DNA of 5,860 nucleotides, from the IMG/VR virus record IMGVR_UViG_3300029121_000098; one strand, given 5' to 3'. Each line of letters starts with the position of its first letter. The first letter of the stretch is position 1. Below are positions 1-5,567 of the stretch, piece after piece. The notes beneath the pieces were generated by a model, which was not told the DNA's origin, did not search any database, and saw nothing but the letters and a program-made list of their open reading frames with translations. Origin of the DNA: a virus. Lineage: Duplodnaviria > Heunggongvirae > Uroviricota > Caudoviricetes. Both the position numbers and the translations under genes were made by a program.

Positions 1-1
1 T

Positions 2-157
2 ATGAAGCAGCAAAAGGCGATGTTAATCGCCCTGATCGTCATCTGTTTAACCGTCATAGTGACGGCACTGGTAACGAGGAAAGACCTCTGCGAGGTACGA
101 ATCCGAACCGGCCAGACGGAGGTCGCTGTCTTCACAGCTTACGAACCTGAGGAGTAA
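2..157 (+). CDS. hokD: Hok/Gef-family type I membrane toxin, 51 aa (HokD/RelF-like)
   Basis: ATG at 2, TAA at 155-157. Translation MKQQKAMLIALIVICLTVIVTALVTRKDLCEVRIRTGQTEVAVFTAYEPEE: one hydrophobic helix plus a charged tail with a conserved Cys, matching the Hok/Gef family as I recall it. Absent from the ORF track because it is short. The mok/sok partners would lie upstream, outside the window. Confidence 0.88.
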   Translation: MKQQKAMLIALIVICLTVIVTALVTRKDLCEVRIRTGQTEVAVFTAYEPEE

Positions 158-164
158 GAGACCC

Positions 165-186
165 GGCGAGGGAGAAATCCCTCGCC
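165..186 (+). other. Perfect 9-bp stem-loop with GAAA tetraloop in the hok 3' UTR (candidate hok mRNA folding/processing element)
   Basis: GGCGAGGGA-GAAA-TCCCTCGCC; all nine pairs are Watson-Crick, starting 8 nt after the hok stop. Hok mRNAs are known to carry structured 3' elements (fbi); which element this is remains inference. Confidence 0.4.
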
Positions 187-225
187 ACCTCTGATGTGGC
201 AGGCATCCTCAACGCACCCGCACTT

Positions 226-252
226 AACCCGCTTCGGCGGGTTTTTGTTTTT
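226..252 (+). terminator. Rho-independent terminator downstream of hokD
   Basis: AACCCGC-TTCG-GCGGGTT hairpin followed by TTTTGTTTTT. Confidence 0.6.
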
Positions 253-373
253 ATTTTCAACGCGTTTGAAGTTCTGGACGGTGCCGGAATAGAATCAAAA
301 ATACTTAAGTAGCGCGCAGGGATAAGAGGGATGGTCCCTTAAAGGGGAGAGCTAATTATCCGGAAGAATTCTG

Positions 374-625
374 ATGATGAACATCGAAGAACTGCGTAAA
401 ATTTTTTGTGAAGATGGCCTCTATGCTGTGTGCGTTGAAAATGGAAATCTTGTTAGTCATTACCGCATTATGTGTTTGCGAAAGAATGGGGCTGCGTTAA
501 TTAATTTTGTGGATGGTCGAGTGACAGACGGATTTATCTTGCGCGAAGGTGAGTTTGTCACTTCATTACAGGCACTGAAAGAGATCGGAATAAAAGCAGG
601 CTTTTCAGCTTTTGCAGAAGAATAA
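374..625 (+). CDS. rem: Rem-like small prophage protein, 83 aa
   Basis: 83-aa ORF starting MMNIEELRKIF..., same length and gene neighbourhood (hokD - rem - ydfU) as Qin prophage Rem in E. coli K-12 as I recall it; weak GGAAG Shine-Dalgarno 8 nt upstream. Confidence 0.75.
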   Translation: MMNIEELRKIFCEDGLYAVCVENGNLVSHYRIMCLRKNGAALINFVDGRVTDGFILREGEFVTSLQALKEIGIKAGFSAFAEE

Positions 626-691
626 ACTCATCTACAATCTTGCGCGGGGCTGAACTCCCGCTGAGTAACACCGTGCCACCGGAGAAAACCG

Positions 692-970
692 ATGGCACGC
701 AACGTAAAATATTACAATTCTGATAATTCGCCCGTTCTTGCCTGCACGCACGAGCGGTATTCTCACGCATTCAAGTCTGAATGGTTCCAGCACCCTCCAT
801 GCACTGAAGAGCAGGCTGAATGGATAATTCAGTGTTACCGCAGGCGCGGATACGAGGTTAAGAAAGCCCTTAGTCTCGACTACCGTCACTGGATAATCTC
901 AGTCAGATTGCCTTACTCCGAACGCCCACCGCGTCCGTCCCGTACATTCCAGCAACGCATCTGGAGGTAA
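692..970 (+). CDS. Hypothetical prophage protein, 92 aa, Cys/His-containing
   Basis: ATG start with GGAGA Shine-Dalgarno about 7 nt upstream. Its stop (968-970) lies inside the Shine-Dalgarno/start region of the next gene (GGAGGTAACGTG), indicating translational coupling. No family recognised. Confidence 0.5.
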   Translation: MARNVKYYNSDNSPVLACTHERYSHAFKSEWFQHPPCTEEQAEWIIQCYRRRGYEVKKALSLDYRHWIISVRLPYSERPPRPSRTFQQRIWR

Positions 971-3226: not shown

Positions 3227-3231
3227 CAAGG

Positions 3232-3275
3232 TTGATTTTTCCGGAATCTGTGGTAAATTCATCATAATGATGGGC
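3232..3275 (+). promoter_or_regulatory. pR'-like late promoter with a promoter-proximal sigma70 pause element (Q engagement region)
   Basis: -35 TTGATT (3232-3237), 16-nt spacer, -10 TAAATT (3254-3259), identical to the lambda pR' -10 as I recall it. It is followed by CATCATAATGATGGG, a -10-like repeat resembling the lambda pause-inducing ACGATGGG segment. Confidence 0.55.
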
Positions 3276-3307
3276 TTTTTATGCCTGACGTTAGAAGAGT
3301 TTCTACA

Positions 3308-3332
3308 ACCCGCCGCCGAGCGGGTTTTTTAT
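3308..3332 (+). terminator. tR'-like rho-independent terminator
   Basis: ACCCGC-CGCCGA-GCGGGT hairpin followed by TTTTTTATT, about 45-65 nt downstream of the predicted start site. Confidence 0.6.
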
Positions 3333-3369
3333 TGCGGAATTAATTACGGACCGTTATTATTCTGCTCCC

Positions 3370-3445
3370 GGCCCTTTAGCTCAGTGGTGAGAGCGAGCGA
3401 CTCATAATCGCCAGGTCGCTGGTTCAAATCCAGCAAGGGCCACCA
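3370..3445 (+). tRNA. ileZ: tRNA-Ile2 (anticodon CAT, presumably lysidine-modified to read AUA)
   Basis: Cloverleaf fits: acceptor GGCCCTT/AAGGGCC, D-arm GCTC...GAGC, anticodon loop CTCATAA, T-arm CGCTGG-TTCAAAT-CCAGC, encoded CCA. Near-identical to E. coli ileX as recalled; the C4:G69/C5:G68 acceptor pairs fit an Ile2 (TilS substrate) rather than an elongator Met. Confidence 0.85.
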
Positions 3446-3528: not shown

Positions 3529-3605
3529 TCGTTGTTAGCTCAGCCGGACAGAGCAATTGCCTTCTAAGCAATCGGTCACTGGTTCGAATCCAGTACAGCG
3601 CGCCA
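3529..3605 (+). tRNA. argO: tRNA-Arg (anticodon UCU, reads AGA)
   Basis: D-arm GCTC-AGCCGGACA-GAGC, anticodon stem ATTGC/GCAAT with loop CTTCTAA, T-arm ACTGG-TTCGAAT-CCAGT, encoded CCA. The 1:72 acceptor pair is T:C in my fold, so the 5' boundary is uncertain by 1-2 nt. Confidence 0.75.
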
Positions 3606-4069: not shown

Positions 4070-4533
4070 ATACATATCTGGATTATCACCTGTTACGGTA
4101 AAAAGTGATTGCTTACTGTTTTTGTGAATGGCATTGCAGCAGCCGGATAATATCAGTGCTGGCTGACGGTGTGCTGGTGGCGGGTGTGGTGGTTGTTGCT
4201 TTCCCGTTGCTGAAAAAGAAAACGCCAGACTGTTAGCCGGGTATCAGTTAGCGGGAGAAATTTTTAAATACTTCACAATTCAGGCGGTTGACTGTTCTCT
4301 GGTTTGCGGGGAGTTTGTTAAAAGAAACTGGCATGGTGAATCCCCCTGTGCGGAGGGGCAATCAGCGAGTAGGTATATGGGATAATCGCGGATTCAGGTG
4401 CTGGTACTGAATTCACCCGGCACCATGCACTTCAATAGATTCTCTCCACATTATGGATATTCTTTCAGAATATCCCACGCAGACTTTGTGTAAATGTTAA
4501 CAAATGTGCGTTTTATTTGATCTGATTCGCTGT

Positions 4534-4592: not shown

Positions 4593-5021
4593 ATGGGTTT
4601 TCGTAGCGCATCAATTCTTACGTTGATTATTAGTGGGATTATTATCGGGTGCACTGATGCTGTATCGACAAATTATCATGACCGTACATCATATTACTCC
4701 GATAAAGCAATAGAGACACAGTATGTGAGTTCATCTGAACGTACTTCTGATGTTAGTGAGGATATCCGTCTGTATGCCCATCAAATCAAGAGCGCCATCG
4801 AAAAACAGTTCGGGGATGCGAGTAAGTATTCAGGAAAAGAGTGTACACTGAGAATGCATATGGCCCCGAATGGCCTTCTACTGGAGGTTAAAAGAGAAAG
4901 TGGAGACCTCGATTTATGTCGTGAAGCGATGAATGCGATAAAGAATGCTGATATACCTGCCCCCCCTTCGCCGGAAGTATATAAAGTATTTCAAAATGGG
5001 GTGCTGGATTTTAAACCCTGA
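4593..5021 (+). CDS. Lipoprotein with C-terminal TolA domain III-like fold, 142 aa
   Basis: GAGGA Shine-Dalgarno before the ATG. Signal peptide MGFRSASILTLIISGIIIG with lipobox Cys (IIGC), then a Ser/Thr/Tyr-rich linker. The C-terminus IKSAIEKQFGDASKYSGKECTLRMHMAPNGLLLEVKRESGDLDLCREAMNAIKNADIPAPPSPEVYKVFQNGVLDFKP aligns almost residue for residue with the E. coli TolA C-terminus (QIKSAIESKFYDASSYAGKTCTLRIKLAPDGMLLDIKPEGGDPALCQAALAAAKLAKIPKPPSQAVYEVFKNAPLDFKP) as I recall it, including both cysteines. Confidence 0.8.
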   Translation: MGFRSASILTLIISGIIIGCTDAVSTNYHDRTSYYSDKAIETQYVSSSERTSDVSEDIRLYAHQIKSAIEKQFGDASKYSGKECTLRMHMAPNGLLLEVKRESGDLDLCREAMNAIKNADIPAPPSPEVYKVFQNGVLDFKP

Positions 5022-5171: not shown

Positions 5172-5567
5172 GTGGGATTAAAGAAAATCGTTATGTTGAC
5201 TTTTTGGGTCGGTTTTGTTGCGGGATGCACACCTTTACACCCTTCAGATTGCCACAAAACTACTGCTACAGGTAGTTGCAGTTCAGGACGCTGGGATGAT
5301 CAGGATGAATGGGGGGCGCAAGCGCGGGGAATCAGAGCTGCAATTAATGCCAAACTTGATGAGCCGCATAACTGGAAAGGGAAAAAATGCAGGTTGCATA
5401 TGGAATTCTCTCAGGATGGCACGGCGTTAAAAATATCTACCAGTAATGGTGATAAAGCCTATTGCGAAGCGATAAAGTCCGCAGCTCATAAAGCCAAATT
5501 TCCGGCCTTCAACAATCCGGAAGTCTACAGAGATTTTCAGAAATCTGGCTTTGACATGCGAGGTTAG
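5172..5567 (+). CDS. Second, divergent TolA domain III-like lipoprotein (paralogue), 131 aa
   Basis: GTG start 6 nt after a GAGGAG Shine-Dalgarno. Signal peptide MGLKKIVMLTFWVGFVAG with lipobox Cys (VAGC). C-terminus GIRAAINAKL...GKKCRLHMEFSQDGTALKISTSNGDKAYCEAIKSAAHKAKFPAFNNPEVYRDFQ aligns with the upstream paralogue and with TolA domain III, keeping both cysteines. Confidence 0.75.
   Translation: MGLKKIVMLTFWVGFVAGCTPLHPSDCHKTTATGSCSSGRWDDQDEWGAQARGIRAAINAKLDEPHNWKGKKCRLHMEFSQDGTALKISTSNGDKAYCEAIKSAAHKAKFPAFNNPEVYRDFQKSGFDMRG

What the first reader, a model, noticed from the sequence alone, without database searches (positions are those of the whole stretch)
2..252. Hok-family toxin at the prophage edge with a strongly structured 3' UTR
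A 51-aa Hok/Gef toxin is carried inside a prophage, a post-segregational killing or stress-lysis module that could stabilise the prophage or act in abortive infection. The region directly after the stop folds into a perfect 9-bp stem with a GAAA loop and then a terminator, consistent with the elaborate mRNA folding that controls hok translation. The mok/sok control elements cannot be assessed because they lie upstream of the window.
Basis: partly seen in the sequence, partly recalled or inferred. Interest (0 to 1): 0.4.

Follow-up and report, generated by a model that had tools for sequence, protein, structure and literature searches.

The report
Known hokD toxin gene and tail
This is the well-known small membrane toxin gene hokD of a Qin-type E. 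coli prophage, together with the conserved RNA tail that keeps its message silent; it is ordinary and already described.

Summary
Window 2-157 encodes the 51-aa HokD toxin (Pfam HOK_GEF, 82.9 bits). A perfect 9-bp GAAA hairpin lies at 165-186 and an intrinsic terminator at 226-252.

The window starts one base before the hok ATG, so the control region is cut off. It is present in all five closest E. coli genomes (258-260 of 260 bases identical). There I found:
- a hok promoter;
- the 5' tac element;
- an in-frame mok start 57 nt upstream of hok;
- the antisense Sok gene (Rfam sok, 115 bits).

It pairs with tac in the full-length fold (z -8.5). This duplex is kept in all 35 hok loci compared, with compensatory changes.

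The hairpin matches the 3' stem-loop that protects the processed, active hok mRNA in plasmid R1.

The locus is 92.6% identical to mokW/hokW/sokW of phage 933W/Sp5. That system is a tested type I toxin-antitoxin pair that speeds lysis after prophage induction.

The gene sits inside the prophage, not at its edge. The closest genomes have no relBE upstream.

Verdict: already known, low interest.

The parts
2..157 (+). hokD coding sequence (51 aa plus TAA stop at 155-157): a small hydrophobic Hok/Gef-family inner-membrane toxin.
   Evidence: ORF. Pfam HOK_GEF 82.9 bits. NCBIfam Hok family below its cut-off, 48.5 against 73. RefSeq annotates the identical DNA as hokD. The CDS is identical to E. coli K-12 hokD.
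135..149 (+). Weak candidate stem (CAG 135-137 / CUG 147-149) around a loop holding UACG at 140-143 (Tyr47 codon UAC at 140-142). This is the reported A-to-I (TadA) editing site that would recode Tyr to Cys.
   Evidence: RNAalifold pairs columns 309/323 (CG 21, UA 14) and 310/322 (GC 22, AU 11) on 35 loci. The stem is not stable alone: -0.6 kcal/mol, z +0.6. hokD mRNA is reported as 6% edited (PMC12214031). Support is weak.
154..160 (+). GUAAGAG, spanning the hok stop codon. In the full-length mRNA it is predicted to pair with the leader element CUCUUAC, which lies upstream of the window next to the Sok promoter.
   Evidence: RNAalifold helix, columns 141-147 with 328-334, paired in 35 of 35 loci. 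The helix is essentially invariant, so there is no covariation evidence for or against it. It is also present in the MFE fold of L002.
165..186 (+). Perfect 9-bp hairpin with a GAAA loop. It is the counterpart of the last stem-loop of the 3'-processed (truncated, translatable) hok mRNA, which protects that mRNA against 3'-5' exonucleases.
   Evidence: -19.7 kcal/mol, z -5.8. Conserved in 35 hok loci with 97.5% of cells paired and compensatory changes at column pairs 345/363 and 348/360. An A-U to G-C change at the same pair is seen in hokW. The function is inferred from R1 hok mutagenesis (PMC9841398).
187..206 (+). ACCUCUGAUGUGGCAGGCAU. This segment is complementary to the mok start / Sok-target region of the leader and helps close the full-length mRNA.
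   Evidence: Present in the MFE fold of the L002 transcript. Cognate duplexes average -15.6 kcal/mol, against -11.7 for non-cognate pairs and about -6.6 for shuffled sequences, mean z -3.8, over 34 distinct loci.
207..219 (+). fbi (fold-back inhibition) element CCUCAACGCACCC. It pairs with the 5'-terminal tac element GGGUGCUUGAGG, which lies about 167 nt upstream of the window start.
   Evidence: Full-length fold, -173.3 kcal/mol, z -8.5. A 12-bp duplex forms in all 35 loci at -17 to -24 kcal/mol, against -9.5 +/- 2.8 for shuffled 3' ends. The column pair 4/404 is UA 22, CG 11. No tac-like partner exists inside the window.
226..252 (+). Intrinsic terminator of the hok transcript: 7-bp stem 226-243, UUCG loop, then a T-run.
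   Evidence: and 51 (-11.8 kcal/mol, z -3.0).

Best explanation
Window 2-252 is the toxin half of a complete hok/mok/sok type I toxin-antitoxin locus. It is the hokD allele of Qin-type lambdoid prophages and is nearly identical to hokW/mokW/sokW of Stx phage 933W/Sp5. The window boundary cuts off the regulatory half.

Shown here, by sequence and folding in the closest genomes:
- A promoter about 175 nt upstream starts a transcript of about 420 nt.
- The first 12 nt of that transcript (tac) pair with fbi at window 207-219.
- The segment 187-206 and the stop-codon region 154-160 pair with the mok start / Sok-target region and the neighbouring leader.
- The full-length mRNA is therefore closed.

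Inferred from work on plasmid R1 hok:
- The closed mRNA is neither translated nor bound by Sok.
- Slow 3'-5' trimming removes the terminator and fbi and stops at the 165-186 hairpin.
- The shortened mRNA refolds. It is then either bound by the unstable antisense Sok RNA and cut by RNase III, or translated when Sok has decayed.
- mok translation is coupled to hok translation. HokD inserts into the inner membrane and collapses it.

Inferred from hokW-sokW in Sp5: in a prophage the likely trigger is induction. Sok disappears, Hok is made before the holin and endolysin, and lysis and phage release are advanced.
For: Identity of the gene:
- Pfam HOK_GEF 82.9 bits.
- Window 1-700 is 100% identical to many E. 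coli chromosomes annotated hokD-rem.
- The best whole-window match is 99.7% identical, inside a Qin-like prophage.

Control region in related genomes:
- Rfam sok RF01794 scores 115.3 bits (gathering score 59) directly upstream of the hok ATG in L002.
- A promoter-like site TTGGCG-17-TAGAAT ends 6 nt before the tac G.
- All five closest genomes carry tac at -169 and a leader 167-170 of 170 bases identical.
- A mok ATG lies in frame 57 nt upstream, as in the annotated mokW.
- The annotated sokW maps to L002 7883-7953 on the minus strand. That RNA folds at -28.7 kcal/mol, z -5.1.

Structure:
- The full transcript folds at -173.3 kcal/mol, z -8.5, with tac paired to fbi.
- Covariation and conservation were checked over 35 loci from Escherichia, Kluyvera, Photorhabdus, Pantoea, Citrobacter and others.

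Relation to hokW and to published experiments:
- The locus is 92.6% identical over 432 nt to the hokW locus of 933W and VT2-Sakai.
- Primers from the hokW paper match L002 and the window at 25/25, 24/25, 49/50 and 43/50.
- hokW-sokW is a tested TA pair that speeds lysis and doubles phage release (PMC8621323).
- Mutations in the last 3' stem-loop of truncated R1 hok mRNA abolish toxicity, which the authors attribute to RNase degradation of the destabilised mRNA (PMC9841398).
- HokD was among the previously characterised toxic Hok sequences used as controls in an overexpression assay (bioRxiv 10.1101/2025.08.07.668861).
Against: - The presence of tac, mok and sok in this particular genome is inferred from its closest relatives.
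- 1164 of 5426 complete E. coli genomes carry the K-12 arrangement, with relE replacing the leader.
- No expression, processing or toxicity data exist for this exact locus.
- Chromosomal hok loci tested in the literature did not mediate post-segregational killing (cited in bioRxiv 10.1101/2025.08.07.668861).
- Most covariation is clustered by clade, so it reflects few independent events.
- The 35 loci were selected with a pattern that required tac-like and fbi-like motifs. That inflates conservation, though not the compensatory changes.
Confidence: 0.9

Rival explanations
1. K-12-type relBEF arrangement. In the window's own genome hokD is the third gene of a relB-relE-hokD operon with no tac, mok or sok. 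The 3' fbi and the other pairing segments would then be orphan relics, and the hairpin and terminator would simply end the operon.
For: In E. coli K-12, homology to the leader stops about 18 nt upstream of the hokD ATG, with relE 71 nt away. This junction occurs in 1164 of 5426 complete genomes. The hok CDS and 3' UTR are nearly identical in both arrangements, differing by one base in the hairpin.
Against: All five genomes closest to the window (258-260 of 260 bases identical, four of them sharing its rusA-Q-tRNA context) have the full leader and no relBE. K-12 Qin has no rusA gene and no tRNA genes annotated downstream of ydfU, unlike the window. Leader-bearing hokD loci are found in at least 2622 genomes.
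Confidence: 0.06
2. An intact-looking but functionally silent relic. The locus is carried along in a cryptic prophage, is never activated, and has no selectable role, as has been proposed for chromosomal hok loci.
For: [quoted passage not shown] Decayed copies exist: L006 has a degenerate tac, L044 and L048 have broken reading frames, and the Salmonella prophage L061 carries a hok pseudogene.
Against: The CDS, promoter, tac, mok, the Sok hairpin and fbi are all intact and highly conserved in thousands of genomes. Compensatory changes keep the long-range pairings. The 92.6%-identical hokW-sokW is active and affects phage release (PMC8621323).
Confidence: 0.2
3. The hairpin-plus-terminator region (166-247) is an independent small RNA, isrK-like and Hfq-binding, rather than part of the hok mRNA.
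For: A sub-threshold Rfam isrK match spans the whole model: 25.7 bits against a gathering score of 50, E 0.016 and 0.0023.
Against: The score is far below the gathering score. The match rests on a generic hairpin followed by a terminator. No promoter-like site lies between the hok stop codon and the hairpin. A Gifsy-like Salmonella prophage with a decayed hok gives no isrK hit. The same segment is accounted for by conserved hok elements.
Confidence: 0.02

Closest known systems
hokW / mokW / sokW of Stx2 phage 933W and Sakai prophage 5 (Sp5)
   Same: 92.6% DNA identity over 432 nt, from the promoter to fbi. It has the same 51-aa toxin length, the same in-frame mok start 57 nt upstream, and an identical Sok promoter region. 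The tac and fbi sequences are the same. The 3' hairpin is at the same place, with one compensatory A-U to G-C change. Both are carried by lambdoid prophages.
   Different: The C-terminal residues of the toxin differ. About six differences lie in the 5' single-stranded part of Sok and its target. The 3' end diverges after fbi, so the terminator is different. The position in the phage genome also differs: 933W carries the locus near one end of its linear record, whereas here it lies between the replication/cargo genes and rem-ydfU-rusA-Q.
hokD (relF) of the E. coli K-12 Qin cryptic prophage, third gene of the relBEF operon
   Same: The coding sequence is identical. The 3' UTR is identical up to position 225, where my K-12 extract ended, except for one base in the hairpin (A-U becomes G.U). 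The neighbours rem and ydfU are the same.
   Different: K-12 lacks the hok promoter, tac, mok and sok, with relE in their place. The closest genomes to this window keep the complete leader. K-12 has no rusA gene and no tRNA genes annotated downstream of ydfU, whereas the window has both.
hok/sok (parB) of plasmid R1, the experimentally defined paradigm
   Same: The parts come in the same order: tac, ucb, mok SD, Sok target, dcb, hok, 3' stem-loop, fbi, terminator. The tac/fbi fold-back is the same. The Rfam sok model matches at 115 bits. The element names and roles are as described in PMC9841398.
   Different: The R1 system is plasmid-borne and acts in post-segregational killing. Per PMC8621323, Hok of R1 and HokW share only 44% protein identity. 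I did not align the R1 sequence here.
hokC (gef) / mokC / sokC of the E. coli chromosome
   Same: A close paralogue, 82% protein identity. It has the same tac, a wobble variant of fbi (CUUCAACGCACCC), the 8-bp version of the 3' hairpin, and an in-frame mok.
   Different: The leader is shorter. It is chromosomal and not in a prophage. The copy in one K-12-like genome (L016) loses homology to the other hokC 3' UTRs inside the hairpin, so its 3' arm and fbi are missing.

Membership tests
[quoted passage not shown] | A small (about 50 aa) hydrophobic Hok/Gef toxin that matches the family profile. | tested here: met
   Pfam PF01848, 82.9 bits against a cut-off of 22, covering profile positions 1-42 of 42. 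RefSeq names the identical sequence HokD.
[quoted passage not shown] | An antisense Sok RNA gene in the hok leader, with its own promoter. | tested here: met
   This feature is outside the window and was tested in the closest genomes. Rfam sok scores 115.3 bits against 59 at L002 7833-8007. The annotated sokW of 933W maps to L002 7883-7953 on the minus strand and folds into a stem-loop with a free 5' tail, z -5.1. The Sok promoter region is identical to that of sokW. It cannot be tested for the window's own genome.
[quoted passage not shown] | A mok reading frame that starts upstream of hok and overlaps it (translational coupling). | tested here: met
   An ATG lies 57 nt upstream of hok and in frame with it in L002. 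This is the same geometry as the annotated mokW, 213 nt against 156 nt with a shared stop codon. It is outside the window.
[quoted passage not shown] | Long-range pairing of the 5' end (tac) with a 3' element (fbi) that closes the full-length mRNA. | tested here: met
   fbi lies at window 207-219. The pairing appears in the MFE fold, z -8.5. It forms in 35 of 35 loci with compensatory changes.
[quoted passage not shown] | A stable stem-loop between the hok stop codon and fbi, which becomes the 3' end of the processed mRNA. | tested here: met
   Window 165-186, conserved with 97.5% of cells paired. That processing actually stops there was not tested.
[quoted passage not shown] | The protein is toxic, and Sok neutralises it. 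| not testable with these tools
   From the literature only. HokD served as a previously characterised toxic control in an overexpression assay (bioRxiv 10.1101/2025.08.07.668861). sokW neutralises HokW (PMC8621323).
relBEF operon (E. coli K-12 Qin arrangement of hokD) | relE ends about 70 nt upstream of hokD, and there is no hok leader. | tested here: not met
   None of the five closest genomes has relBE upstream, and all have the leader.
isrK Hfq-binding sRNA (Rfam RF01394) | A score at or above the Rfam gathering score. | tested here: not met
   25.7 bits against 50. No hit in a Gifsy-like Salmonella prophage locus.

The most novel reading that the evidence does not exclude
The hok/sok cassette may be the fixed right-hand anchor of a cargo-exchange hotspot in Qin-type prophages. 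Directly upstream of it, different strains carry relBE, an AIPR/AbiU-like gene, an ABC-three-component system or a HEPN gene. On this reading, the K-12 relBEF operon, and a parallel relE-hok junction in Kluyvera, arose when such an exchange crossed over inside the hok leader. That crossover would have stripped sok, mok and tac and put the toxin under relBE control.
Probability: 0.3. Interest if true: 0.3.

Novelty: already known. Interest (0 to 1): 0.1.

Why it matters
There is little new here. hokD/relF and the hok mRNA fold-back mechanism have been known for decades. The phage copy (hokW/mokW/sokW) is annotated in the 933W GenBank record, and its function was tested in 2021.

The check is still useful for annotation:
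- It shows that the 3' UTR features are the standard hok elements.
- It shows that the K-12 relBEF form of hokD is the less common arrangement. At least 2622 complete E. coli genomes have a leader-bearing copy, against 1164 with the relE junction.

Tried and rejected
1. isrK. A sub-threshold Rfam hit at 166-247 suggested that a known Salmonella prophage sRNA might derive from a hok 3' UTR. A Gifsy-like Salmonella prophage with a decayed hok gave no isrK hit, and the IsrK paper never mentions hok. I dropped this as a generic hairpin-plus-terminator resemblance.

2. TadA-editing hairpin at 135-149. RNAalifold shows two covarying pairs, but the 3-bp stem is not stable on its own. I kept it only as a weak candidate.

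3. Column-wise pair counting of the inner half of tac/fbi. This was spoiled by a one-column MAFFT shift in the Photorhabdus rows. I replaced it with per-sequence duplex folding.

4. Consensus promoter scan. It did not find the Sok promoter, whose -10 element TAACCT matches only 3 of 6. I placed it by homology with sokW instead.

5. NCBIfam. It gives only sub-threshold Hok-family hits for HokD, and PADLOC has no Hok model hit.

6. Tools not used. Protein-database searches, structure prediction and fold search were unnecessary for a 51-aa protein of known family.

Full report
**1. Observation**

The window opens one base before an ATG. The ORF 2-157 encodes MKQQKAMLIALIVICLTVIVTALVTRKDLCEVRIRTGQTEVAVFTAYEPEE. 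It matches Pfam HOK_GEF over the whole profile at 82.9 bits, against a cut-off of 22.

After the TAA stop at 155-157 come two structures:
- a perfect 9-bp inverted repeat, 165-173 / 178-186, with a GAAA loop;
- a terminator-like hairpin at 226-243 followed by a T-run.

The hairpin alone folds at -19.7 kcal/mol (z -5.8). The terminator folds at -11.8 kcal/mol (z -3.0). The whole 3' UTR folds at -39.8 kcal/mol (z -3.3). Only one other perfect short-loop hairpin of 9 bp or more exists in the 5860 bases. The description is therefore accurate and not a chance feature.

**2. Identity and context**

Window 1-700 is 100% identical to many E. coli chromosomes in which RefSeq annotates hokD and rem. The best match to the whole window is 99.7% identical.

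That match lies inside a Qin-like lambdoid prophage with this gene order:
- dicB, then the repressor and cro genes;
- replication genes and a DUF977 gene;
- a variable cargo slot;
- hokD, rem, an unnamed ORF, ydfU (DUF968), rusA and the antiterminator Q;
- tRNA genes and TolA-like genes;
- lysis genes, the terminase and the portal gene.

The toxin gene is thus in the interior of the prophage. 'Edge' applies only to the window.

**3. What lies upstream**

In L002 the 169 bases before the hok ATG match the Rfam sok family at 115.3 bits, against a gathering score of 59. The model is written in the sense of the hok leader and ends at the hok AUG.

- A promoter-like site (TTGGCG-17-TAGAAT) ends 6 nt before GGGUGCUUGAGG, the tac element.
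- An ATG 57 nt upstream of hok is in frame with it. This is the same geometry as the annotated mokW of phage 933W.
- The annotated sokW maps to L002 7883-7953 on the minus strand. That RNA folds into a long stem-loop with a free 5' tail, -28.7 kcal/mol, z -5.1.
- Its promoter, TTGCCT-17-TAACCT, lies in a stretch identical to 933W.

All five genomes closest to the window carry this leader. They are 258-260 of 260 bases identical over hok plus the 3' UTR, and their leaders are 167-170 of 170 bases identical to L002. None of them has relBE upstream.

E. coli K-12 is different. There, homology stops about 18 nt before the hokD ATG and relE takes the place of the leader.

Among 5426 complete E. coli genomes:
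- at least 2622 hold a hokD-type locus with promoter and leader;
- 1164 hold the relE-hokD junction.

**4. The 3' UTR explained**

I folded the predicted transcript, L002 7833-8251. It gives -173.3 kcal/mol, z -8.5. The first 12 nt pair with CCUCAACGCACCC, which is window 207-219. This is the tac/fbi fold-back that defines hok mRNAs (PMC9841398). The window itself contains no tac-like partner.

To test conservation I collected 53 Hok loci from one genome per species. I aligned 35 non-redundant ones with a recognisable leader, from Escherichia, Kluyvera, Photorhabdus, Pantoea, Citrobacter, Pseudocitrobacter and unnamed Enterobacteriaceae.

tac/fbi:
- Every locus forms a 12-bp 5'/3' duplex of -17 to -24 kcal/mol. 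Shuffled 3' ends give -9.5 +/- 2.8.
- The fourth pair is U-A in 22 loci and C-G in 11.
- GAGG/CCUC alternates with GAGA/UCUC and GAAG/CUUC.

Hairpin:
- It is paired in 97.5% of cells.
- Compensatory changes occur at two pairs. A further A-U to G-C change is seen in hokW.

RNAalifold, run without my structure, recovers the following:
- the outer six pairs of tac/fbi;
- the hairpin;
- an essentially invariant helix between leader CUCUUAC and GUAAGAG at the stop codon (window 154-160);
- a small covarying helix around the UACG editing motif.

The segment between the hairpin and fbi (187-206) pairs with the mok start / Sok-target region. Cognate duplexes average -15.6 kcal/mol, non-cognate -11.7 and shuffled about -6.6.

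Two caveats apply:
- The loci were picked with a pattern requiring tac-like and fbi-like motifs.
- The compensatory changes cluster by clade, so there are few independent events.

**5. Mechanism**

Shown here: the parts, their order and the predicted closed fold.

Inferred from R1 hok (PMC9841398):
- The closed full-length mRNA is neither translated nor bound by Sok.
- 3'-5' trimming removes the terminator and fbi.
- The stem-loop after the stop codon becomes the new 3' end and protects the RNA.
- tac then pairs with ucb, freeing the mok Shine-Dalgarno sequence and the Sok target.
- Sok binding leads to RNase III cleavage. Without Sok, mok and hok are translated.

In R1, nineteen substitutions at nine positions of that last stem-loop abolished toxicity. 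The authors attribute this to RNase degradation of the destabilised truncated mRNA. This gives the window's hairpin a concrete role.

For the biological role, the closest tested system is hokW-sokW of Sp5, which is 92.6% identical in DNA. Primers from that paper match at 25/25, 24/25, 49/50 and 43/50. In that system (PMC8621323):
- sokW disappears after mitomycin C;
- HokW is made in a RecA-dependent way, about an hour before the endolysin;
- growth arrest comes about 40 minutes earlier than in the deletion mutant;
- phage release is about twofold higher.

A role in post-segregational killing or abortive infection remains untested. Chromosomal hok loci did not show post-segregational killing in earlier work (cited in bioRxiv 10.1101/2025.08.07.668861).

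HokD was used as a previously characterised toxic control in that preprint's overexpression assay. hokD mRNA is reported as 6% A-to-I edited at the Tyr codon that corresponds to window 140-142 (PMC12214031).

**6. Comparison and novelty**

The locus passes every sequence-level criterion of the hok/sok family. It differs from the closest known members only in small ways:
- From hokW: toxin C-terminus, a few Sok positions, terminator and genome position.
- From K-12 hokD: it has a complete leader rather than relE.

It fails the relBEF criterion in the closest genomes and the isrK gathering score. It is an already known element.

**7. Remaining uncertainty**

I put the probability that it carries the complete leader at about 0.9.

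Noticed in passing
L001 4548-6323; L002 4770-7556; L058 887-1819; L003 5347-5873 (E. coli K-12, minus strand): The slot directly upstream of the hok locus holds different cargo in otherwise similar Qin-type prophages. The cargo is an AIPR protein (PADLOC AbiU, 82.9 bits), an ABC-three-component system (PADLOC PDC-M68B, 139.8 bits), a HEPN-domain protein, or relBE in K-12. It looks like a cargo or defence hotspot bounded by a DUF977 gene on one side and hok on the other.
   Followed up: partly
L028 about 1016-1200 (Kluyvera sp. CHPC 1.2972): A relE 3' end is joined directly to a different Hok variant (MKQQSWRFITL...). As in K-12, there is no tac, mok or sok, but an fbi-like 3' element remains. 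The relBE-hok fusion therefore recurs outside E. coli with another hok allele.
   Followed up: partly
L002 7704-7790; L001 about 6701-6790: A conserved hydrophobic ORF of 28-29 aa (MLVLKCSLTIAVVRVIYCSVILMDRLSD) lies just upstream of the hok promoter. It is absent from 933W and K-12 and has no NCBIfam match. It may be a small membrane protein.
   Followed up: no
window 4302-4482 (+): A full-length match to the Rfam sRNA family STnc100, at 84.9 bits against a gathering score of 47. It lies between the tRNA genes and the TolA-like genes.
   Followed up: no
window 3370-3445 and 3529-3605 (+): Two tRNA genes lie downstream of the Q antiterminator gene. One has anticodon CAT and is annotated tRNA-Ile in RefSeq copies. 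The other is tRNA-Arg (TCT). My recollection is that Stx-type lambdoid phages carry similar tRNA genes in this region.
   Followed up: no
window 3227-3333 (+): Just after the Q gene there is a strong terminator-like hairpin at 3307-3326 and a weak Trp_leader Rfam hit (25.7 bits, below the gathering score). This is probably the short late-promoter transcript and terminator on which Q acts.
   Followed up: no
window 4593-5021 and 5172-5567 (+): Two paralogous prophage genes encode TolA C-terminal domains (Pfam TolA, 82.6 and 54.6 bits). They could interfere with TolA-dependent phages or colicins.
   Followed up: no
window 166-247 (+): A sub-threshold Rfam isrK match, 25.7 bits against 50, covers the hairpin and terminator. 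It was not reproduced in a Gifsy-like Salmonella prophage that carries a decayed hok (L061 1426-1602).
   Followed up: yes
window 266-295 (+): A promoter-like site (TTGAAG-18-TAGAAT) lies right after the hok terminator and about 80 nt upstream of rem. It might drive rem independently of hok.
   Followed up: no
E. coli complete genomes: hokD-type loci occur at a median of 2 and up to 9 places per genome, and at several hundred places on plasmids. Some copies are decayed: L006 has lost tac, and L044 and L048 have broken reading frames.
   Followed up: partly
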